From an uncultured Gammaproteobacteria bacterium (GTDB lineage: Bacteria; Pseudomonadota; Gammaproteobacteria; JACCXJ01), in the NCBI GenBank assembly GCA_963764725.1, contig CAVXTM010000013.1, positions 22,919 to 86,918 of the forward strand: DNA of 64,000 nucleotides, in the 5' to 3' direction. The notes below the pieces were generated by a model. That model saw only the letters and a list, made by a program, of their open reading frames with translations. It was not told where the DNA came from and did no database searches. Numbering within the stretch: position 1 is the first letter of the stretch; the number at the start of each line of letters is the position of its first letter. Below, piece after piece: positions 14,860 to 42,738 of the stretch. A program made the position numbers and the translations under genes.

Positions 14860-14989
14860 GCACACAGGGGGGCGCACCGTAGTATCCTGCGGCAAGAGTG
14901 GGACGGTTCAGGAGGTCCATTATAGCTATAAAAGGATTACAAAAAATGGGAATCGTTCTTGGTTGGAAAGGCGGCCAGGAGCAAGTTGC
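14860..14989. repeat. Diverged copy of the intI upstream region and first codons
   Basis: Colinear with 29845-29974 (gcacacagggg...cattatagcta...atgggaatcgttcttggttggaaag...ggagcaagttgc). Confidence 0.9.
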
Positions 14990-16123: not shown

Positions 16124-16190
16124 GCCGAACGCTCACGTTGACCGGCCGCGGCGAGCGAAGGCGAGCCAGCGGTCCGGTCGAACGTGCTGT
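16124..16190 (-). other. attC site split by a group II intron (remaining R'' bases at 16658-16662)
   Basis: Removing 16191-16657 restores GT|TGGGC; arms ttgaccgg / ccggtcgaa. Confidence 0.88.
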
Positions 16191-16657
16191 GTACGCCCGA
16201 CATGGGCATGAACTGATGGGGTGAAAGTCCTCTGTAGGAGTACAAAATGTCCACGTGGTGGACGACTATAACTACTAGCCGACGGCAAGGGCAAAGCCCG
16301 CGAGGGATTGTCTGAAGGAAGCCCGAGCGCAAAGGTGCGAGCCGACGGACAGAAATCGCATAGAAGGCTCAGTCTCCGGGCGCAAGGCCTATTGGCACTT
16401 GTCGTCGAAGACCTTGGCGACACAAACTGGGATGACAATCGCCTGGCGACCCGCCAGGGCTTGATATCCGTGCGTGCGCTTTGGATGCGCTGATGTTCTC
16501 GTGTGCTCCACTTTTGTGACCGTTCCGCCAGGAGCGGAACGGGACGCTTTAGCGCCCGCAGAGTGCGCACCATCGATGGCGGGCATCAGGCCCCGGTGCG
16601 GACCCGCGTGCCGTGGTGGTGTGGGGACTGGGGGCTAAACACCCCCGGTTACCCGAT
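16191..16657 (+). mobile_element. Internally deleted group IIC-attC intron
   Basis: 5' GTACGCCCGACATGGGC...GGGGTGAAAGTCC; DV/DVI 3' end ggccccggtgcggacccgcgtgccgtggtggtgtgggg...ttacccgAT; short maturase tail (KTLATQTGMT, QGLISVRALW). Confidence 0.9.
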
Positions 16658-20005: not shown

Positions 20006-20078
20006 GCCGAACGTTTAAGTTCACCCGCTTGCGGAAGCGGGCGAAGCCCGCTGTAGCGAGTCCGGTGCAACGAAGGGT
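20006..20078 (-). other. attC site interrupted by a group II intron
   Basis: Plus strand GCCGAAC...ccggtgcaacgaaggGT is followed immediately by the intron 5' end. Confidence 0.8.
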
Positions 20079-20500
20079 GTACGCCCGACATGGGCATGAA
20101 CTAATGGGGTGAAAGTCCCCTGTAGGAGTACCTGTAATGTCCACGTTGTGGACGAATATAACTACTAGCCGACGGCAAGGGCAAGCCCGCGAGGGCTGGT
20201 CTGAAGGAAGCCCGAGCGCAAAGGTGCGAGCCGACGAACAGAAACCGCATAGAAGGCTCAGTCTCCGGGCGAGTCAGCACAAGATGACGAAGCCTACCGG
20301 GTACGGGAGATGGGGTAAATGCGGCGGTTGTGCACCGATAGTGGATGCGCGCCGTCCGTGGCGCGCCCCCTTCGGGCGTGCTTCGCACGTCCCGTTTCTT
20401 TCCCGAAGAAACGGTCATGTTCTTATTCGGGGAGATCTGCCTGGCATGCGGCCGGGAGGGGGAGCCGCACTTATCTCAGCATGGGCGGTGCCGGTGACCA
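20079..20500 (+). mobile_element. 5' part of a second group IIC-attC intron
   Basis: Near-identical to 16191-16382 and continues to gttcttattcggggagatct; no ORF or DV; right limit approximate. Confidence 0.85.
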
Positions 20501-21524: not shown

Positions 21525-22045
21525 GCCCAACGAATAAGCATTTATCCGTTGTGCGCAGGCGAGATACGCGAAACCGGCTCGGGCGCTAGCGCGCATGACG
21601 GATAAATGTCTGTTGGACTAAACCGCGACGGCACCGGGATTGTCAGTCTGGATCAGTTTGCTTATATAAGGGGATTGTATTCCCGGATAGGGAGTTTGTG
21701 GAAGTCGCAGGCGTGTAGGACGGATGGGTGGGTGGCCTCGGGCGGGAAAGCAGTTGCGTTTTGGCCGGTTCGTGCGGGCAATTTGCGTGCGTGATCGTGG
21801 CTTTCTTACGGTCAAGGCGAGCGCATTCCCAGACCGCTCGGGGCCTGTCGAAAAGCCGGCTTTGTGTGCGCTTGGGCTGGTCAGGTGTCAGTGGTCAGCC
21901 TCCGTCAAAGCGTTTCGGCGCCAGGTGAGCGGTGATCCGCAGGTGGCCCTTCCGGCACAGCGGACAGGGGTAGCCGTCGAAAGGGGCTTGGCGTTCGCCA
22001 CTGGCGGTCGGCTCGGGGGGCTGCTGCGCAGCGCTGGACATGCAA
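21525..22045 (-). mobile_element. 3' remnant of IS91-like element with terminal attC-like hairpin (21525-21618)
   Basis: Colinear with 27931-28440; encodes PFDGYPCPLCRKGHLRITAHLAPKRFDGG*. Confidence 0.88.
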
Positions 22046-24780: not shown

Positions 24781-24854
24781 GGCTTCACGGTCCGCTGATG
24801 GAGGATACCCGCCCACCCGGAACAAAACCGCGCGCTCATGCACTCCCTCGAAGA

Positions 24855-25658
24855 CCTGGCAGCAGGACTGGAACGTCAACTGCCAGGCCGTCCCCCGTGC
24901 CGAGGTTTCGATCGCCTATCTCGCTCCCTCCGTCTTCAAGGTGGCTATCTCGGATCACCGCATCCTCAAGGTCGAGGACGGACGGGTCTCCTTCTCCTAC
25001 AAAAAAACCGGTAGCGCTCGGTCGCGGACCCTGACCCTCGACGCCTTGGAGTTCATCCGCCGTTTCCTACACCACGTGTTGCCCAAAGGCTTTATGAAAG
25101 TCCGCTATTACGGCTTCCTCTCGCCCACCGCCAAGGTGCCCTTGGAGGACATCAAGGCCCTGGTCGAACTGGCCCATGGCTTCACCGTGACCGTGCCCGA
25201 GATTCGAGCTACCACCTTGGCCACAACCGACCTGTCAGGACTGCGGGGGACCACTCCGCTTCCACAGCTCACGGCGCATCCGCCGCCGCCCATTGATGCC
25301 ACAAACGTCGGACCACCCGGCTCGACACGATCTCCAGCCCATGTGTAGCCCATAGCAACTTGCAAACGCCCGCGCTGCCGCCCGGTGTCTTCTTCGGGTC
25401 ACGGCCTCCCTTTGCCTGCTACCCCTAATTCGCACCCTGAAAGGCATTATTAACAGGTCCCTAAATCCGATTACGATACCCAACACCCAGATCCGACCGC
25501 CCTCTACTTCGGCTATCTCCAGCTCCCGATGCCCATAGCCACCACATCGCCCACCCTTCACCGAAGCAATCCCTTAATAAAGAACCCACCCAACACCGGG
25601 CTTCTTGAACATTGGATTGAAACGACCATCCATGGTCGTCTCAATCCTTACTGGTTAG
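24855..25658 (+). mobile_element. 3' remnant of a second IS91-like element, inverted relative to the array, with terminal hairpin 25604-25658
   Basis: WQQDWNVNCQ...YLAPSVFKVAISDHRI...EFIRRFLHHVLPKGFMKVRYYGFLS; CTTGAAC-att-GGATTGAAACGACCAT/ATGGTCGTCTCAATCC-ttactg-GTTAG. Confidence 0.85.
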
Positions 25659-27930: not shown

Positions 27931-29699
27931 CCCTAACAAATAAGCATTTATCCGTCGTGCGCAGGCGATATACGCGAAACCGGCTCTGACGGTAGGGCGC
28001 ATGACGGATAAATGTCTGTTGGACTAAACCGCGACGGCACCGGGGTTGCTGGTCTGGATCAGGTGTCCTTATTTTAGGGGATTGTATTCCTTGGGAGGGA
28101 GCCGATGGAAGTCATGGGCGGTAGGAGGCGGTGCGTGGGGTGATCTGGAGCGAGCAAGCAGCGGCGTTTCGGTCCCGTGGGAGGGGGTGATTTTCATGAG
28201 GATCCTTGGCTTTTCTTAGGGACAAGGCGAGCGTATTCCCAGACCGCTCGGGGCCTGTCGAAACGCCGGCTTGGTGTGCGCTTGGGCTGGTCAGATGTCG
28301 GTGGTCAGCCTCCGTTAAAGCGTTTCGGCGCCAGGTAAGCGGTGACGCGCAGGTGGCCTTGGCGGCACTTCGGACAAGGGTAGCCGTCGAAGGGGACAGA
28401 AACTTGGGCGGTCGTCTCGGGTGGTTGCGCGGCGTTGATGGCTGCGCGTATAAAATCGAGGCGCTGAGCACGGCAGCGGTTAGCGAGAAAGCCGAAGTGG
28501 CGGATGCGCATGAAGCCCAAGGGCAGGACATGGAGCAGGAAGCGGCGCAGGAGCTCCTCGCCCGCGAGGGCCAACACCTTGTGGCGGTTACTGTCGCGGT
28601 AGTCCTTGTAGTCGAGCCGCACCTGATCGCCCTCCAAAGCGAGGATACGTGCATCGGTCAAGGCGATCCGGTGAGTGTAGCGGGCCAAATAGTTCACCAC
28701 CGAGCCGGTATGAGTCAGCGATGGTTTGGAGTAGACCACCCAGTCGGTGGCCATCAGGGTATCGAGCACCGCACCGATCTGCGCCGGATCGCTAAGACGC
28801 GGAAGTTTGCCGTCCTCGATCTCTTGGCGCAGGCGGCTGACGAAGCCGCCGCGGACATGGCGCGAGAGTGCCCGCACCGGAAACAGGTAGGTGCTCTTAG
28901 CCGGATGCCATCGGCCCTGGGGTGAGAAGGCACCTCCCGGGACCAAGCAATGCAGATGCACGTGCTGGCTCAAGGTCTGTCCCCAGGTGTGTAGCACCGC
29001 GGTCATCCCGAGCTCGCCGCCGAGGCGTTTAGGATCGGCGCCGAAGCGAGATAACGTGGCCCACACCGTCTGGAACAGGAGCCCGTAGATCACCTCGGGG
29101 TGGAGTTGTACCCAGGGGTTCAGCTCATGCGGCAGGGTGATCACCAGATGATGGTAGGTGACCGGCAGCACGGCCGCTTGTTGCCGCTCGCACCAGGCTT
29201 GTGAAGCCCGGCGTTGGCAGCGCGGACAGTGCCGGTCGCGGGGGTTGGTGCAGGCGCTGAGGATCCGCCCGACCTCGGCGCGAGTCAGCAACTCCGGGAT
29301 GCGCTGGGCCTTCTTCGGGATCGGGATGTCAACAGCGAAGGCCGGCCAGTCAAGTACCTGCAGATACAAAAAACGGATACCGTGCAGAAACACCCGGCAG
29401 CTTGCACCCGACAAAGACCGCTCGGTGGCCAGGTACTCGAAATAGCCACGGATCTCGTCAATCCCAATCTTATCCGGGGAGCGGTGGACATGGCGTGCCA
29501 GATCCGTCACAGCGGCCAAGTAGCTTTCGTGAGTTCGGACCGAGAAGCCACGCACCTGCATGGCTTTGATCATCTGCGCGCGTAATGGGGTCATCGTTCG
29601 TCTCCTCTGAAAAAGACCCGAATGGGCCTCTCGGGAGTTTGAACGATGCAACTACGAAGGGAGAATCAGATAAGGCTCCGCGAAGCGGTTTAGTTCAAC
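27931..29699 (-). mobile_element. Tyrosine recombinase/IS91-like element with terminal attC-like hairpin (27931-28024), first position of the array
   Basis: Begins GTTGAACTAAACCGC and ends GCGGTTTAGTCCAAC + CATTTATCCGTC/GACGGATAAATG hairpin + GTTAGGG. Confidence 0.85.
28305..29594 (-). CDS. In-frame fusion of tyrosine-recombinase N-terminal domain and IS91-family (HUH Y2) transposase
   Basis: MTPLRAQMIKAMQVRGFSVRTHESYL...IPELLTRAEV joined near 29240 to RDRHCPRC, LHTWG...HVHLH, YLARY, RRFLLHVLP. Confidence 0.88.
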   Translation of the reverse strand: MTPLRAQMIKAMQVRGFSVRTHESYLAAVTDLARHVHRSPDKIGIDEIRGYFEYLATERSLSGASCRVFLHGIRFLYLQVLDWPAFAVDIPIPKKAQRIPELLTRAEVGRILSACTNPRDRHCPRCQRRASQAWCERQQAAVLPVTYHHLVITLPHELNPWVQLHPEVIYGLLFQTVWATLSRFGADPKRLGGELGMTAVLHTWGQTLSQHVHLHCLVPGGAFSPQGRWHPAKSTYLFPVRALSRHVRGGFVSRLRQEIEDGKLPRLSDPAQIGAVLDTLMATDWVVYSKPSLTHTGSVVNYLARYTHRIALTDARILALEGDQVRLDYKDYRDSNRHKVLALAGEELLRRFLLHVLPLGFMRIRHFGFLANRCRAQRLDFIRAAINAAQPPETTAQVSVPFDGYPCPKCRQGHLRVTAYLAPKRFNGG

Positions 29700-29735
29700 A
29701 TGTAATGGGCGGCCGATCTGCCGCCTTGTTTTGCG
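29693..29735 (-). other. Putative attI crossover region
   Basis: First GTTRRRY (GTTGAAC) of the array, upstream of intI, not preceded by an attC palindrome. Confidence 0.5.
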
Positions 29736-29930
29736 GCGCGGCCCCTCTACTCGCCACCCAATATACAGCTCCGTCAATCGCGTGCAGTCCGATCATGAGG
29801 GAGTCGTGAGGAGAGCTAGGCGGCGGTAGCGATCGACTGTTGAGGCACACAGGGGCGCGCCGTAGTATTCTGCGGCAAGAGCGGGACGGTTCAGGGGGTC
29901 CATTATAGCTATCAAAGGATTACAAAAAAA

Positions 29931-30785
29931 ATGGGAATCGTTCTTGGTTGGAAAGACGGCGAGGAGCAAGTTGCGGTCAAATCGCCAGCGCCTCGGCCCC
30001 GACTGCTTGATCAGGTTCGCGATGTCGTTCGTCGGAGACATTACAGCATACGCACCGAGCAAGCCTACATACATTGGATTAAACGCTTTATATTATTCCA
30101 CGGCAAGCGCCATCCACGCCAGATGGGTGCCCGCGAGGTCGAAGCCTTCCTCACACACTTGGCCGTGGCGCAGAAGGTCTCGGCTTCGACGCAGAATCAG
30201 GCCCTCAACGCGCTCGTATTTCTCTACCACCATGTGCTCCTGCAAGAGCTCGGTACCATTGAGAATGTGGAACGCGCCAAACGGCCCGTGCGTTTGCCGG
30301 TGGTCCTGACGGTGGAGGAGGTGCGGGCGGTGCTCGGTGAGCTTAAGGGCGGCGTCTGGCTGATGGCAGGGCTGCTCTACGGCAGCGGACTTCGGCTCAT
30401 GGAGTGCCTTCGGCTGCGCATCAAGGATCTCGATTTCGCGATGCGTCAGATCGTCGTGCGCGACGGCAAGGGTGCGAAGGACCGCATCACCATGCTGCCC
30501 GCCCAGCTCGTCGAACCGCTAAGAACGCATCTCTCCAAAGTCAAGCGTCTGCACGAGCGGGATCTCTCCGAGAGCTTCGGCACCGTCTACCTGCCCTATG
30601 CGCTGGAGCGCAAGTACCCAAAGCCAACCGCGAATGGGGATGGCAGTATATCTCAGGGCGGCTACGACATACGAACGGTACAGGAGCTACTCGGCCACGC
30701 GGATGTCTCCACGACAATGATCTATACCCACGTGCTCAACCGGGGCGGGCGCGGGGTGGTCAGTCCGCTGGATGTCTCGCTTTGA
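29931..30785 (+). pseudogene. intI: Integron integrase with internal deletion of box II
   Basis: [66 protein letters not shown]; HxLRHSFATH segment absent. Confidence 0.93.
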
Positions 30786-31663: not shown

Positions 31664-32830
31664 TCACGCATACCGCAACGCTTCGGCGATCTGTAGCCTG
31701 GCGGCGCGCAATGCGGGTAACAATCCGCCGACGAGGCCCATCACGAGGGCGAAAACCAAGGATTCCATCACGATGGCCCGCGTCAAGGTAAAGTCGAACG
31801 CCAACTCGGCGAAGGTCTGCCAGTTCATGGTGGAGACGCTCACTGTCTGCATCAAGGAGGCCAGCAGGATCCCCAGCGTGCCTCCGACGAGACCGAGGAG
31901 ACACGACTCGGTGATAAACGCCGACAAGATATCGCGCCGATGAAACCCCAAAGCCCGCAGGGTGGCGATCTCTGAGGTGCGCTCGGCCACCGAACTGTAC
32001 ATGGTGATCATCGCTCCGAGCACGGCGCCGATCGCAAAGGTTATACTCAGCGTGGTCCCCAATATACTTAAGAAATTGGACATCACCTCCGACTGTTCGG
32101 CATAGAACTCGATCTCCGGCTTGGCTTCGAGCGTCAAGCGCGGGTCCTCACTGATCCTTAGCTGTACGGATTCTAAGGTATGCCGGTCGGCCAGCCGGAA
32201 AATCACCGAGGAGTATGCGTTGCGGCGAAACGCCTGCATCAACTGATCGGCATCGCCCCAGATCTCCGAGCTGAAGCCGCTCTGCCCCGCATCGAAGAGC
32301 CCGACCACGGTCCACTCCCGGCCGCCCAATCGGATCCGCTCCCCGAGGCCGGTCCCGGCAAAGCCCTCCGCAATCTTGACGCCGGTGATGATTTCCGCGG
32401 TTCCCGGTCGGAACATCCGGCCTTGAACCATGCGAACCTGCGGCCGCAACCACAAGCCCGGCGTCGATAGCCCGCGAATGGTGACATTCGAAGGCTTCCC
32501 GCTCCCGCGCTTCGCGAGCACGAGGAGCACCAAGGTTTCCTTCGAAGCGAAGCGCTCTCCCGCCGCCCCATGCGCGATGTGCGGCAGACTCTCGATGATC
32601 GCCGCCTGCTCGCGATCCACGCTGCTTTGCACTTCAGTTTCCGCCGAACGGCGAATGACGATGACATTGTCGCCACGGCCGGTACCCACCAAGGTTTGCT
32701 TGATTCCTTCGGCAAGCATACGCATGGTCGCGAAAACAAATACCACCAAGGCCATTCCCCCGATGGTCAAGAGTGTCGTTACCCGGCGTGCCCGGAGATT
32801 GCGATGAATATAATAGAACGGAACGGCCAC
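31664..32830 (-). CDS. ABC transporter permease (MacB/FtsX family)
   Basis: ERTSEIATLRALGF, four-TM FtsX layout. Confidence 0.92.
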   Translation of the reverse strand: MAVPFYYIHRNLRARRVTTLLTIGGMALVVFVFATMRMLAEGIKQTLVGTGRGDNVIVIRRSAETEVQSSVDREQAAIIESLPHIAHGAAGERFASKETLVLLVLAKRGSGKPSNVTIRGLSTPGLWLRPQVRMVQGRMFRPGTAEIITGVKIAEGFAGTGLGERIRLGGREWTVVGLFDAGQSGFSSEIWGDADQLMQAFRRNAYSSVIFRLADRHTLESVQLRISEDPRLTLEAKPEIEFYAEQSEVMSNFLSILGTTLSITFAIGAVLGAMITMYSSVAERTSEIATLRALGFHRRDILSAFITESCLLGLVGGTLGILLASLMQTVSVSTMNWQTFAELAFDFTLTRAIVMESLVFALVMGLVGGLLPALRAARLQIAEALRYA

Positions 32831-32834
32831 TCGT

Positions 32835-32961
32835 CCTACTGTGTCACAAGTCGATCAAGGGATGCCATGCGAGGCGGAATAGTTTACACGCCAGTAAATG
32901 AGCATTTCGAGCCACATTCCAACGAAGCAGAGCGCCCTTCAGCGGGTTGTGACACAGTAGG
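32835..32961. repeat. Palindromic MITE-like element, copy 1
   Basis: TIR CCTACTGTGTCACAA/TTGTGACACAGTAGG; related copy at 42553-42692. Confidence 0.85.
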
Positions 32962-32962
32962 A

Positions 32963-34129
32963 CTAGGGGGCGTCTCTGAGCGCCGAGGCGATGGACTCCT
33001 TGGCGCCGATGGCCGCGAACAACCCGGCCAAAAGCCCCACGAGCCCGGCCGCCCCGAACGCCAACGCAATGGTCGTCGTGGAGACCGTGAAAATCGGAAA
33101 CAGGGTCCCGACGCGGGCGGCGAAGACCTTTGCGACCGGGAAGGTCAGGGCGATCCCGAGCAGGCCCCCCGAGCAGGACAGGAACAAGGATTCTCCCACG
33201 ATGAGGCCGAGCACATGTTTGGAACCGAAGCCCAAAGCCTGCAACGTGGCGTACTCGCGCCTCCGTTCCCGCACGGCCATTGTCATCGTGTTCGCCGCCA
33301 CGGCGAGGATGATGGCGATCACGAACAGCGATACTATTTGAACCACCACCAAGATCGCCTCCGTCATGGCGACGAACCCGAGTTGAAAGGCCTTCTCGGT
33401 CTCAGTCAGCGTCTCCGCCATCGAGTTTTTGAAAAGCGCATCGATGTCCCGGGACACCCGGGCCGCCTCAGCCGCGCGGTGCAACCCAATGACGTAGATG
33501 CCGACGCGGTCCTGGCGTCCACCGGGCCGCTTCTTCTGCTCCTCATTGAGATAGTTCCAATGGAAGAACAGATTCGTCTCGTCGATTTTCGGCTCGGCGC
33601 CGACATAAATCCCGCGCAGCACAAACCGCCACTCCCCGGGATAAATCGTACCCCGTAACGGGACGACGTCGCCGACCTTCCAGCCGTATTGCTCGGCGAG
33701 CCTGCGGCCGGCAACGGCGCCGCCTTGGTCTTTGAGAAATGCGCTCAACGCATCCGGCGGCAGGATGAATTCCGGATATAAGGTCAAGTAGCTCTTCGGC
33801 TCGATAGCGAATTGCGGGAAGAAATTCTTTTCATCGATATAAACTCCCGCGAACCAATTGGCGTAGCTCACCGTGGCTACCCCGGCGACTTGGCGAATGC
33901 GATTGAGATAGCTGATGGGCAGCGGGAAGACGAGCGAAATCGCGTTACGGGTGATGAGCCGCTTGGCGGAAGTCGCCTCGGCGCCCGCATACCAGGCATC
34001 GACCACGGTGCGCAGAAGCCCGAAAGCCACGATGGCGATCATGATGCCAGCCAAGGTTAATGCCGAACGCAAGCGGTGTCGCAGGAGGTTCCGCGCTATC
34101 CATCCGACAAAAAACACCAGGCCCGACAT
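32963..34129 (-). CDS. ABC transporter permease (MacB/FtsX family)
   Basis: RNLLRHRLRSALT, AVRERRREYATLQALGF. Confidence 0.92.
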   Translation of the reverse strand: MSGLVFFVGWIARNLLRHRLRSALTLAGIMIAIVAFGLLRTVVDAWYAGAEATSAKRLITRNAISLVFPLPISYLNRIRQVAGVATVSYANWFAGVYIDEKNFFPQFAIEPKSYLTLYPEFILPPDALSAFLKDQGGAVAGRRLAEQYGWKVGDVVPLRGTIYPGEWRFVLRGIYVGAEPKIDETNLFFHWNYLNEEQKKRPGGRQDRVGIYVIGLHRAAEAARVSRDIDALFKNSMAETLTETEKAFQLGFVAMTEAILVVVQIVSLFVIAIILAVAANTMTMAVRERRREYATLQALGFGSKHVLGLIVGESLFLSCSGGLLGIALTFPVAKVFAARVGTLFPIFTVSTTTIALAFGAAGLVGLLAGLFAAIGAKESIASALRDAP

Positions 34130-41326: not shown

Positions 41327-41343
41327 ATCGTTTTTTAAGCGCC

Positions 41344-42505
41344 TAGTGTAATGCTTCTGAATTGATGGAACTATATGCCTTCCGGTCGATCTGATCTGGA
41401 GATCGAACGAGGAGGCGAACATGCGAACAGCCGGTGTAATTGAGCTTACAGATGAACAACGGCAACAACTGCAACGATGGACCCGGTCGAGCACGGTCAG
41501 CGTGCGTCTGGCGCGGCGGGCACGGATAATCCTGTTGGCGGCCGAAGGTATGGACAACCACCAGATCGCAGGAGAGGTAAGCGTTGGGCGAATTCAAGTG
41601 GGTCGTTGGCGCAAGCGCTTTGCGCAAAGCGGGCTTGCAGGCATTGAAGCCGATTTGCCGCGTAGCGGCCGCAAGCGCCGCATCAACGCTGCCAAGGTCG
41701 TGCGCCTGACCACCCAGAGCACACCGCAAGGCGCCACCCACTGGAGCACGCGCACGCTGGCGGCAAGGGTCGGGATCAGCGACAGCAGCGTGCTGCGGAT
41801 CTGGCGCGCCAATGGGCTCAAGCCGCATTTGGTCGAGACCTTCAAGGTCTCGCGCGACCCGCAATTTGTCGAGAAGCTCGAAGACATCGTCGGACTGTAT
41901 TTGTCGCCGCCTGAACATGCGCTGGTGCTCTGCTGCGACGAGAAGAGTCAAGTGCAGGCCCTGGACCGTACCCAGCCTGGGTTGCCGTTGAAGAGGGGCC
42001 GCGCGGGTACGCTGACCCACGACTACAAACGTCATGGCACCACGACGCTGTTTGCCGCGCTGAACACGCTCGATGGCTCGGTCATCGCTCGCTGTAATAA
42101 TCGCCACCGTCACCAAGAATGGCTGACCTTCTTGCGCCAGATTGATCGGGAAACCCCAAAGGGCAAAGCCCTGCATCTGATTTGCGACAACTACGCCACG
42201 CATAAGCATCCCACGGTCCGGGCGTGGCTCGCGAAACATCCGCGTTTCCAGGTGCATTTCACCCCGACCTCGGCCTCTTGGCTCAATATGGTCGAACGGT
42301 TTTTCCGCGACATCACGACCGAACGCCTGCGCCGCGGTGTATTCCGCAGCCTCCCCGAACTTATCAGCGCCATCCAGGACTATATCGCCGTGCATAACCA
42401 TGACCCCAAGCCCTTCGTCTGGACCGCCAAGGCCAACGACATTCTGCAAAAGGTCATTCGTGCCAATCACCGCTTAAGTTCCAAGAAAAACGAAGCACTA
42501 CACTA
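41344..42505 (+). mobile_element. IS630-family insertion sequence, apparently intact
   Basis: TIR TAGTGTAATGCTTC/GAAGCACTACACTA in CTAG context. Confidence 0.92.
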
Positions 42506-42552: not shown

Positions 42553-42692
42553 CTACTGTGTCACAAGTTGATCAAGTGATGCCGTGCAAGGCGGAATCGG
42601 GCGAGAAGGCGGAGTTTACACGACAGTAAATGAGCATTTCGAGCCCGACTCTAACGACCCACGGCGCCCTTCGGCGACTTGTGAAACAGTAG
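42553..42692. repeat. Palindromic MITE-like element, copy 2
   Basis: CTACTGTGTCACAAG...CTTGTGAAACAGTAG; shares agtttacacg.cagtaaatgagcatttcgagcc with copy 1. Confidence 0.85.
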
Positions 42693-42738
42693 GATTATCC
42701 TGCTCCTCCAACCGCGGCAAGGGTTGAGGAGCGCTTAC

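What the first reader, a model, noticed from the sequence alone, without database searches (positions are those of the whole stretch)
27931..29699. Candidate self-mobilising integron cassette: tyrosine recombinase + HUH transposase + own attC-like end
Seen: the first array position holds an element starting GTTGAACTAAACCGC and ending GCGGTTTAGTCCAAC, a long hairpin and GTT. It encodes a recombinase N-domain and an IS91-type HUH/Y2 enzyme. A CAATCCC(C/T)TA-like motif lies 30-60 nt before the hairpin in all three copies (28075-28084, 21667-21677, 25567-25576). Established: IntI recombines folded single-stranded attC, HUH enzymes generate ssDNA, and integrase-IS91 gene pairs are known from annotations. 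Inference: the HUH enzyme nicks at the oriIS-like motif to make ssDNA and the recombinase (own or host IntI) integrates the folded end at GTT sites. I do not know of this mechanism having been described.
Basis: partly seen in the sequence, partly recalled or inferred. Interest (0 to 1): 0.85.

Follow-up and report, generated by a model that had tools for sequence, protein, structure and literature searches.

The report
Integron-homing IS91 element mimicking a cassette
A broken copy of a jumping gene that is built like an integron gene cassette, with its own hairpin recombination site, sits exactly at the integron's capture site; the family is widespread, but how it moves has not been described.

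Summary
Window 27937-29699 (minus strand) is one mobile unit. It starts at G|TTGAACTAAACCGC and ends at GCGGTTTAGTCCAAC, an 80-nt hairpin and G|TT. It lies exactly at the attI crossover point of a decayed integron.

It belongs to a large IS91 subgroup that pairs an IntI-like tyrosine recombinase with a Y2 HUH transposase. When the two ends are joined they form an attC-like stem. A second family in the same genome (transposase about 35-40% identical) and relatives in other phyla keep this pairing with different letters.

Copies insert at the GTT of attI or attC sites. There are five near-identical copies in this genome and at least 13 in one Desulfobacterium chromosome. One public contig closes on itself through the predicted hairpin-G|TTCAAG junction.

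The window copy is dead. A deletion fuses the recombinase N-domain to a truncated transposase, and the neighbouring intI is a pseudogene.

An HUH-only IS91 route fits the same junctions.

The published trace I found is one passing remark. This scan has noted the same kind of element on other genomes.

The parts
29685..29699 (-). Left terminal box GTTGAAC+TAAACCGC (R'-like core plus extension). The small palindrome CCGC-TTC-GCGG runs on to 29678 and resembles a terIS palindrome.
   Evidence: six left junctions all start here; attI homology of three copies stops at ...ACATGTT.
29244..29597 (-). Remnant of the tyrosine recombinase gene: N-terminal SAM-like domain only, about 118 aa. The catalytic domain is deleted.
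   Evidence: Phage_int_SAM_4, aa 5-83. (TIGR02249 profile positions 4-116 only).
28305..29240 (-). IS91-family Y2 HUH transposase lacking about the first 58 profile positions, fused in frame to the recombinase remnant. HUH motif HVHLH and Y2 motif YLARY are present.
   Evidence: NF033538 profile positions 59-355, 346 bits.
28075..28084 (-). Conserved CAATCCCCTA motif downstream of the transposase (oriIS-like; function not tested).
   Evidence: kept in families A and B and in relatives.
28018..28032 (-). Subterminal box GCGGTTTA+GTCCAAC (R''-like), complementary to the left terminal box.
27938..28017 (-). Terminal imperfect hairpin: about 19-bp stem, structured loop, 4-nt bulge on the 3' arm.
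   Evidence: z = -4.3.
27935..27937 (-). GTT at the right junction. The element's last base is the G at 27937. TTAGGG begins the next cassette.
   Evidence: 13 right junctions diverge after GTT; one copy reads G|AT.
29700..29930 (-). attI region of the integron, 94% identical to two other attI copies in the genome.
29931..30785 (+). intI pseudogene. An internal deletion removes about aa 222-289, including box II (HxxR).
21526..21985 (-). Second, truncated family-A copy: hairpin, box, motif and transposase 3' end.
24845..25656 (+). Truncated family-B copy, backward relative to the cassettes: transposase C-terminus, motif 25567-25576, CTTGAAC 25604-25610, hairpin, GTT 25654-25656.

Best explanation
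What it is. This is a dead copy of an insertion sequence of the IS91 family, from the subgroup that carries an IntI-like tyrosine recombinase gene translationally coupled to a Y2 HUH transposase gene. Its termini are built so that, joined head to tail, they form an attC-like folded site: box, hairpin, G|TT, complementary box. The unit therefore has the anatomy of an integron cassette, and it sits as first cassette exactly at the attI crossover point. These points are shown.

How it most likely moves (inferred). The HUH transposase makes a single-stranded or circular copy. The folded junction is then recombined at G|TT (AA|C on the other strand) with attI or a folded attC. The enzyme would be a tyrosine recombinase: the element's own, and for this forward-oriented family possibly also host IntI.

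Consequence. Insertion splits or extends attC sites and creates new cassette boundaries.
For: - Identity. IS91 transposase and recombinase domains are present.
- Ends of family A. Six left and 13 right junctions are set against different flanks.
- Ends of family B. Four independent sites in the own genome define them. Other flanks at exactly the same bases appear in contigs of four other runs. Ten complete copies of equal length lie in one public chromosome.
- attI. Homology of three attI copies stops at ...ACAT GTT. It is followed by the element here and by ordinary cassettes elsewhere.
- Folding. The joined ends fold at -42 kcal/mol (A) and -26 kcal/mol (B).
- Covariation. The pairing is kept with other letters: GTTGAAC/GTCCAAC against GTTCAAG/CTTGAAC. 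The best left/right 14-mer complementarity is at least 13/14 in 22 of 65 loci, against 1 of 65 in a reversed control.
- Gene linkage. The recombinase gene lies directly upstream of the transposase gene in 73 of 80 relatives.
- Catalytic motifs. All three recombinase motif patterns match in 49 of 57 full-length recombinases. HUH and Y2 match in 69 of 77 transposases.
- Junction. One public contig (L072) closes on itself with a 141-nt overlap, unit 2604 bp, through hairpin-G|TTCAAG.
- Integron context. IntI is present above cut-off in 4 of 5 host genomes tested; the fifth has only a remnant.
Against: - The window copy has no recombinase catalytic domain and a truncated transposase, and intI beside it is a pseudogene. 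No step can be active here.
- The hairpin has no canonical extrahelical bases in its stem.
- The element's recombinase scores 179 bits against the 265-bit IntI cut-off and lacks the roughly 31-aa stretch that aligns to a gap against IntI.
- IS91 TnpA alone inserts a single-stranded circle (PMC13181058, passages read). The antisense strand of these elements reads YAAC|hairpin ... GTTCAAC| or CTTGAAC|, which fits the IS91 tetranucleotide rule. A recombinase is therefore not required by the junctions.
- Family B and the Desulfobacterium copies insert backwards, at the GTT on the R'' side of attC. This holds for 7 of 7 evaluable targets and for the C7 copy.
- No circle joint was seen in contigs of 4 runs.
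- Only 1 of 160 surveyed loci closes on itself, and that could be a tandem pair.
Confidence: 0.55

Rival explanations
1. Pure IS91-type rolling-circle or single-strand transposition. The HUH transposase does all the DNA chemistry and cuts 3' of (Y/S)AAC on the antisense strand. The hairpin is the family's oriIS subterminal palindrome. The small left-end palindrome is terIS. attC and attI are hit because their core boxes offer YAAC beside a hairpin. The recombinase is a regulator, a targeting factor or a resolvase.
For: - The ends read TAAC or CAAC|hairpin ... GTTCAAC| (A) and ... CTTGAAC| (B) on the antisense strand.
- A CCGC-NNN-GCGG palindrome abuts the left end.
- IS91 relatives have subterminal palindromes, GTTC/CTTG tetranucleotides, and TnpA-only insertion of a single-stranded circle (PMC13181058, passages read).
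- One right junction reads CTT instead of GTT (L038), and one target reads G|AT (L143). Both are easier to explain if the G belongs to the target.
- Insertion occurs on either strand of attC.
- The box-plus-hairpin layout also occurs in groups whose boxes are not GTT/AAC.
Against: - The recombinase's catalytic residues are conserved across phyla, and it is coupled to the transposase in 73 of 80 loci.
- The conserved oriIS-like motif lies 90-150 nt inside the end, not at it.
- Family A sits exactly at attI, a site normally used by IntI.
Confidence: 0.3
2. A passive integron cassette. The hairpin is a true attC, and host IntI alone moves the unit. The two genes are cargo.
For: - First position at the attI crossover, in forward orientation.
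- Right flanks are mostly GTT plus a purine (12 of 13), followed by co-directional ORFs.
- The 3' spacer GC-TTATT(C/T)-GTT resembles native attCs of the array.
Against: - There are five near-identical copies in one genome and at least 13 in another. That is IS-like spread.
- The sister family inserts backwards at R''.
- The same end architecture holds across the whole recombinase-IS91 subgroup. This includes Alphaproteobacteria, which as I recall lack integrons (Cury 2016, not read).
- The hairpin has no extrahelical bases.
Confidence: 0.1
3. An ordinary IS91 that landed inside a pre-existing cassette. On this reading the hairpin belongs to that cassette and the end complementarity is chance.
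For: Only the local picture in the window supports this. The literature treats such cases this way (PMC9229058, passage read).
Against: - The hairpin travels with the element in every copy, against different flanks.
- Complementarity covaries between families and beats the control.
Confidence: 0.03

Closest known systems
IS91 family insertion sequences (IS91, IS801, IS1294); ISfinder members with an upstream integrase gene such as ISShvi3 and ISWz1 (that these two carry an integrase is recalled, not from a call)
   Same: - Y2 HUH transposase (NF033538).
- Distinct ends, each with a subterminal palindrome.
- No target duplication.
- A conserved motif downstream of the transposase.
- Circular forms.
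- An upstream gene overlapping the transposase start.
   Different: - The upstream gene is a catalytically intact IntI-like tyrosine recombinase, not Orf121.
- The termini pair with each other into an attC-like site.
- Targets are the GTT/AAC of integron core sites rather than GTTC/CTTG.
Integron gene cassettes and attC sites
   Same: - Unit bounded by G|TT.
- R''/R'-type complementary boxes around an imperfect hairpin.
- Located at the attI crossover point and at attC sites.
   Different: - 2.5 kb with two mobility genes.
- No canonical extrahelical bases.
- Box pairing extends to about 15 bp and is conserved in sequence across phyla.
- The sister family inserts at the R'' side in reverse.
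- Many copies per genome.
IS1111-attC elements and group IIC-attC introns (other attC-targeting mobile elements; recalled, and mentioned in the PMC9229058 passage)
   Same: They home to attC sites in a fixed orientation and parasitise cassette arrays. Group II intron remnants lie in this same array.
   Different: The enzymes are unrelated (DEDD transposase; reverse transcriptase). Neither carries an attC mimic.
IS200/IS605 family (Y1 HUH, single-strand 'peel and paste')
   Same: HUH chemistry on folded single strands, subterminal hairpins and no duplication.
   Different: Y1 rather than Y2, no recombinase partner, and different targets.

Membership tests
IS91 family (Y2 HUH transposons) | Transposase matches the family model | tested here: met
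   NF033538 scores 346 bits for the window copy and 367 bits for family B, against a cut-off of 125. Pfam Y2_Tnp E = 2.8e-56.
IS91 family (Y2 HUH transposons) | HUH motif and two catalytic tyrosines | tested here: met
   HVHLH and YLARY in the window ORF. HPHIH and YLAPY in family B. 69 of 77 relatives match both patterns.
IS91 family (Y2 HUH transposons) | No target-site duplication; two different ends with subterminal palindromes | tested here: met
   Ten complete copies show no repeat beyond the shared G/TT. There is a small palindrome at the left end and a large one at the right.
IS91 family (Y2 HUH transposons) | Target tetranucleotide GTTC/CTTG next to oriIS | tested here: inconclusive
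   The flank next to the hairpin end is TAAC or CAAC on the antisense strand. The left end finishes GTTCAAC or CTTGAAC. This is similar in form but not the same letters.
IS91 family (Y2 HUH transposons) | Rolling-circle or single-strand transposition by TnpA | not testable with these tools
   The only related evidence is one self-closing contig.
Integron gene cassette with attC | R''(RYYYAAC)...R'(GTTRRRY) complementary boxes around an imperfect palindrome | tested here: met
   GTCCAAC ... G|TTGAAC once the ends are joined.
Integron gene cassette with attC | Extrahelical bases in the L'' arm that set strand choice | tested here: not met
   The stem has mismatches but no bulged bases on the 5' arm. 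Native attCs of the array have two.
Integron gene cassette with attC | Inserted at G|TT of attI or attC | tested here: met
   The attI comparison of three copies and the flanks.
Integron gene cassette with attC | Movement depends on IntI | not testable with these tools
   IntI co-occurs in 4 of 5 host genomes. Reverse insertions at R'' argue that IntI is not the only route.
Integron integrase IntI (the element's recombinase) | Scores above the TIGR02249 cut-off | tested here: not met
   179 bits against 265. It is still the best NCBIfam hit, and is 31% identical to the genome's IntI.
Integron integrase IntI (the element's recombinase) | IntI-specific additional domain of about 30 aa (that this domain defines IntI is recalled) | tested here: not met
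   The 31 aa of IntI following residue 211 (YLPFALEKKYQNAAREWGW...) align to a gap.
Integron integrase IntI (the element's recombinase) | R-H-R-Y catalytic residues | tested here: met
   Met in intact relatives: 49 of 57 match strict patterns, and most of the rest are spelling variants. The window copy lacks the whole catalytic domain.

The most novel reading that the evidence does not exclude
The recombinase-IS91 elements are a second hairpin-recombination system that runs alongside integrons. In it, an IntI-like recombinase without the extrahelical-base-binding insert works together with an HUH enzyme that supplies single strands. It recombines folded sites at the mirror position of IntI, the GTT beside the arm that bears the extrahelical bases. 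By splitting attC sites it creates, reshuffles and perhaps mobilises cassettes. It could be an evolutionary relative of the IntI/attC system itself.
Probability: 0.3. Interest if true: 0.85.

Novelty: new variant of a known kind. Interest (0 to 1): 0.72.

Why it matters
Integrons are held to be moved by one enzyme, IntI, acting on folded attC sites. Here a widespread transposon family carries an IntI relative, an HUH single-strand enzyme and an attC mimic. It homes to integron sites and multiplies there.

If the recombinase acts on the folded end, this is a new way to make and integrate cassette-like DNA. It would also be a new force shaping cassette arrays and the attC clusters that lack an integrase (CALINs).

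It also gives a function to test for the unexplained integrase gene of IS91-family members. Some of these, such as ISWz1, sit in resistance regions.

Tried and rejected
- Circle junction in public runs. All 19 holder runs are kept only as Logan contigs. The four laid showed no right-to-left joint. Contigs drop rare forms, so this says nothing either way.
- attI in relatives. None was found in 14 relatives, only within the own genome.
- First end-finder. It required GTT/AAC plus at least 11/14 complementarity and found 17 of 61 loci. Some of those were spurious and some right ends were overshot. It was replaced by the controlled 14-mer test.
- L171. A script flagged it as head-to-tail. It is in fact two diverged copies tail to tail sharing one hairpin, so it is not circle evidence.
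- Strand polarity from spacer asymmetry at the hairpin base. Abandoned, because native attCs show the same 3'-side excess. Only bulged bases within the stem were used.
- Rfam. It has nothing for the hairpin, only group II intron hits.
- L091. This is a tandem repeat with 2 kb of extra DNA, and its ends could not be set.
- Literature. Five searches found no description of the mechanism. Figure S2 of PMC9229058 and the supplementary tables of PMC13181058 may bear on targets and ends.

Full report
**1. What is in the window.**

- intI lies at 29931-30785 on the plus strand. The cassette array therefore runs leftwards, with cassette ORFs on the minus strand.
- Read on the minus strand, the stretch 29699 to 27937 consists of these parts in order:
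  - GTTGAACTAAACCGC at 29699-29685;
  - one ORF at 29597-28305;
  - the motif CAATCCCCTA at 28084-28075;
  - GCGGTTTAGTCCAAC at 28032-28018;
  - an 80-nt imperfect hairpin at 28017-27938;
  - GTT at 27937-27935.
- The hairpin is more stable than all 200 shuffles, z = -4.3.
- The ORF is a fusion.
  - Its first ~118 residues are the N-terminal SAM-like domain of a tyrosine recombinase.
  - The rest is an IS91-family Y2 HUH transposase that starts inside its zinc domain (Pfam; NCBIfam NF033538 profile positions 59-355).
  - A deletion has therefore removed the whole recombinase catalytic domain and the start of the transposase.
- The neighbouring intI is also dead. It lacks about residues 222-289, including box II.
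- A truncated duplicate of the element's right part lies at 21526-21985.

**2. Where the mobile unit ends (family A, the window's family).**

- Six left junctions all begin flank|GTTGAACTAAACCGC. They are the window, G000:C12, three contig ends of G008 and one of G005.
- Thirteen distinct right junctions keep the motif, a ~50-nt spacer, the box and the hairpin, and diverge after GTT (once CTT). The next base is a purine in 12 of 13.
- The junctions from G001, G002, G005 and G008 rest on genomes flagged as unpublished.
- Without them there remain the window twice, G000:C9, G000:C18, G003 and G006 for the right end, and the window and G000:C12 for the left end.
- The left end is fixed independently.
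  - The 231-bp attI region occurs three times in this genome at 94% identity.
  - The three copies agree up to ...CCCATTACAT GTT. After that comes the element in the window, and ordinary cassettes with a ribosome site and ATG in C15 and C4.
  - The element thus occupies the first cassette position exactly at the attI crossover point, in cassette orientation.

**3. A second family shows the same design with other letters (family B).**

- The genome holds five copies of a 2.5-kb element, about 90-99.9% identical to one another. Two of them are part of a segmental duplication, so there are four independent sites.
- Its transposase is about 35-40% identical to the window's.
- Its genes are intact: a recombinase with R, HxxR and Y motifs, and a transposase with HPHIH and YLAPY.
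- Its ends read flank|GTTCAAGTAAGCCGC ... CAATCCCCTTAATAAAG ... GGGCTTCTTGAAC-hairpin-CTGGTTA|flank.
- The box pair has changed on both sides (GTTGAAC/GTCCAAC against GTTCAAG/CTTGAAC), and the hairpin sequence is unrelated.
- Contigs from four other public runs stop matching at exactly the same two bases and continue into other flanks.
- The joined ends fold into one long stem in both families.

**4. The family at large.**

- Of the 80 best transposase relatives in public genomes, 73 have the recombinase gene directly upstream. The hosts span many phyla.
- The best complementarity between the region upstream of the recombinase gene and the region downstream of the transposase gene is at least 13 of 14 in 22 of 65 analysable loci. 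In a control with the left region reversed it is 1 of 65.
- By eye, about 18 of those 22 right boxes are followed at once by a hairpin. This includes proteobacterial groups whose boxes are not GTT/AAC.
- The left motif GTT(C/G)(A/G)A(G/C)(T/A)AA(A/G)CCG recurs in distant hosts.
- All three recombinase catalytic motif patterns match in 49 of 57 full-length proteins. Most of the other eight are spelling variants, one is frameshifted, and one has His replaced by Gln.
- HUH and Y2 match in 69 of 77 transposases.
- The element's recombinase hits the integron-integrase model best, but below its cut-off (179 against 265 bits). It is 31% identical to this genome's IntI and lacks the ~31 residues that align to a gap.

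**5. Targets and orientation.**

- The own genome has two intact intI genes and three remnants.
- Family B copies in C7, C15 and C9 lie on the strand opposite to the cassettes, as does the window fragment.
- In C7 the element sits between the ORF of cassette 2 and that cassette's hairpin, just after ...GTCCTAAC. That is the R'' box, with the element reversed.
- In a public Desulfobacterium chromosome (OY764894.2):
  - there are at least 13 copies but only two intI genes;
  - ten copies have both ends at identical spacing;
  - their right junctions read ...CTAAAGG followed by TTAGGT, TTAAGC, ATAGTG, TTGTGC, TTAAAC, TTAGAG, TTATGT, TTATAA, TTATAG or TTATGG;
  - most left flanks end in hairpins;
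  - in 7 of 7 that I could judge, the two bulged bases lie on the arm next to the insertion point. That again means reverse insertion at the R'' side.
- Family A, by contrast, lies forward, with co-directional cassette ORFs after it.
- IntI is above cut-off in 4 of 5 host genomes tested. The fifth has only a frameshifted remnant.

**6. A head-to-tail junction.**

- Among 160 surveyed loci, one whole contig has identical first and last 141 bases, matching the k-mer size in its name. It is L072, CAZUIY010000320.1, 2745 nt.
- The unit is 2604 bp. It consists of transposase, right end...TTCTTATTG GTTCAAGAAAGCCGC, left end and recombinase, with no foreign DNA.
- Reads joining the hairpin end to the left end through a single GTT therefore exist.
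- They may come from a circle or from a tandem pair.

**7. Mechanism.**

- *Shown.* The unit, its ends, its target positions, its spread, and the existence of the junction.
- *Inferred.* Which enzyme cuts where. The sequences cannot separate a recombinase cut at G|TT from an HUH cut one base away, because the G is shared.
- *For a recombinase.* Its conserved catalytic residues, its tight coupling to the transposase, its kinship to IntI, and the attI position of family A.
- *For HUH alone.*
  - The antisense strand reads YAAC|hairpin ... (GTTC or CTTG)AAC|, and a small palindrome lies at the left end.
  - IS91 relatives use GTTC/CTTG tetranucleotides and subterminal palindromes, and TnpA alone inserts a single-stranded circle (PMC13181058, passages read).
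  - One junction reads CTT and one target reads G|AT.
- I put the two-enzyme route at 0.55, HUH alone at 0.30, passive carriage by IntI at 0.10, and a chance association at 0.03.

**8. What is known.**

- Five full-text searches and the passages read found no description of this design.
- ISWz1 is reported around tet(X) regions, forming circles, without a mechanism (PMC11322121, passages read).
- That ISfinder lists IS91 members with an upstream integrase is recalled, not from a call.
- Earlier notes of this scan describe the same kind of element on eight other genomes. They agree with what I found here independently.

**9. Verdict.**

- This copy is a fossil of an undescribed variant of the IS91 family that parasitises integrons.

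Noticed in passing
window 16294-16418 and 20183-20350 (+): Two group II intron D1-D4 matches (42 and 130 bits) on the strand opposite to the cassettes. Flanking repeats at 16172-16382 and 20060-20271 are 89-96% alike. They look like attC-associated group II introns or their remnants.
   Followed up: no
window 14863-14989: A second fragment of the intI upstream region plus the first ~16 codons of intI, 92-96% identical to 29846-29974. Homology then breaks off, so this is a remnant of another integron head inside the array.
   Followed up: partly
L004 (G000:C12:259681-259787 and flank): A solo 107-bp family-A left end is joined after 12 nt to a CAATCCCTAG motif, with no hairpin. By my unverified reading of the sequence it lies between a TonB-receptor-like gene and a metE-like gene, outside any array. 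It may be a deletion derivative or a mini-element.
   Followed up: no
L171 (metagenome contig Ga0114938_1006588), about 2330-2440: Two diverged recombinase-IS91 elements lie tail to tail and share one terminal hairpin, flanked by the two complementary boxes.
   Followed up: partly
L063 and L123 right ends: The terminal box-plus-hairpin module is duplicated in tandem (...CTAAAG GTTGAAC-hairpin-CTAAAG GTT...). It looks as if a hairpin-only unit had been inserted at the element's own GTT.
   Followed up: no
L053 (G000:C10, both family-B copies): Both C10 copies, and by the and alignments the C9 copy too, carry a ~42-45-bp insertion inside the transposase gene that the C7 copy lacks. The two C10 copies belong to a ~6-kb segmental duplication with no intI nearby.
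   Followed up: no
window 32836-32965 and 42553-42697: A ~130-bp repeat, 80-91% alike, lies beside long minus-strand ORFs at 31664-32830, 32963-34129 and 41343-42470. It is unrelated to the integron.
   Followed up: no
L003 (G000:C9:111191-111370) and L028 (G001): A short-loop variant of the family-A hairpin, with the loop reduced to TGGACA, occurs in several genomes next to heavily deleted transposase remnants.
   Followed up: no
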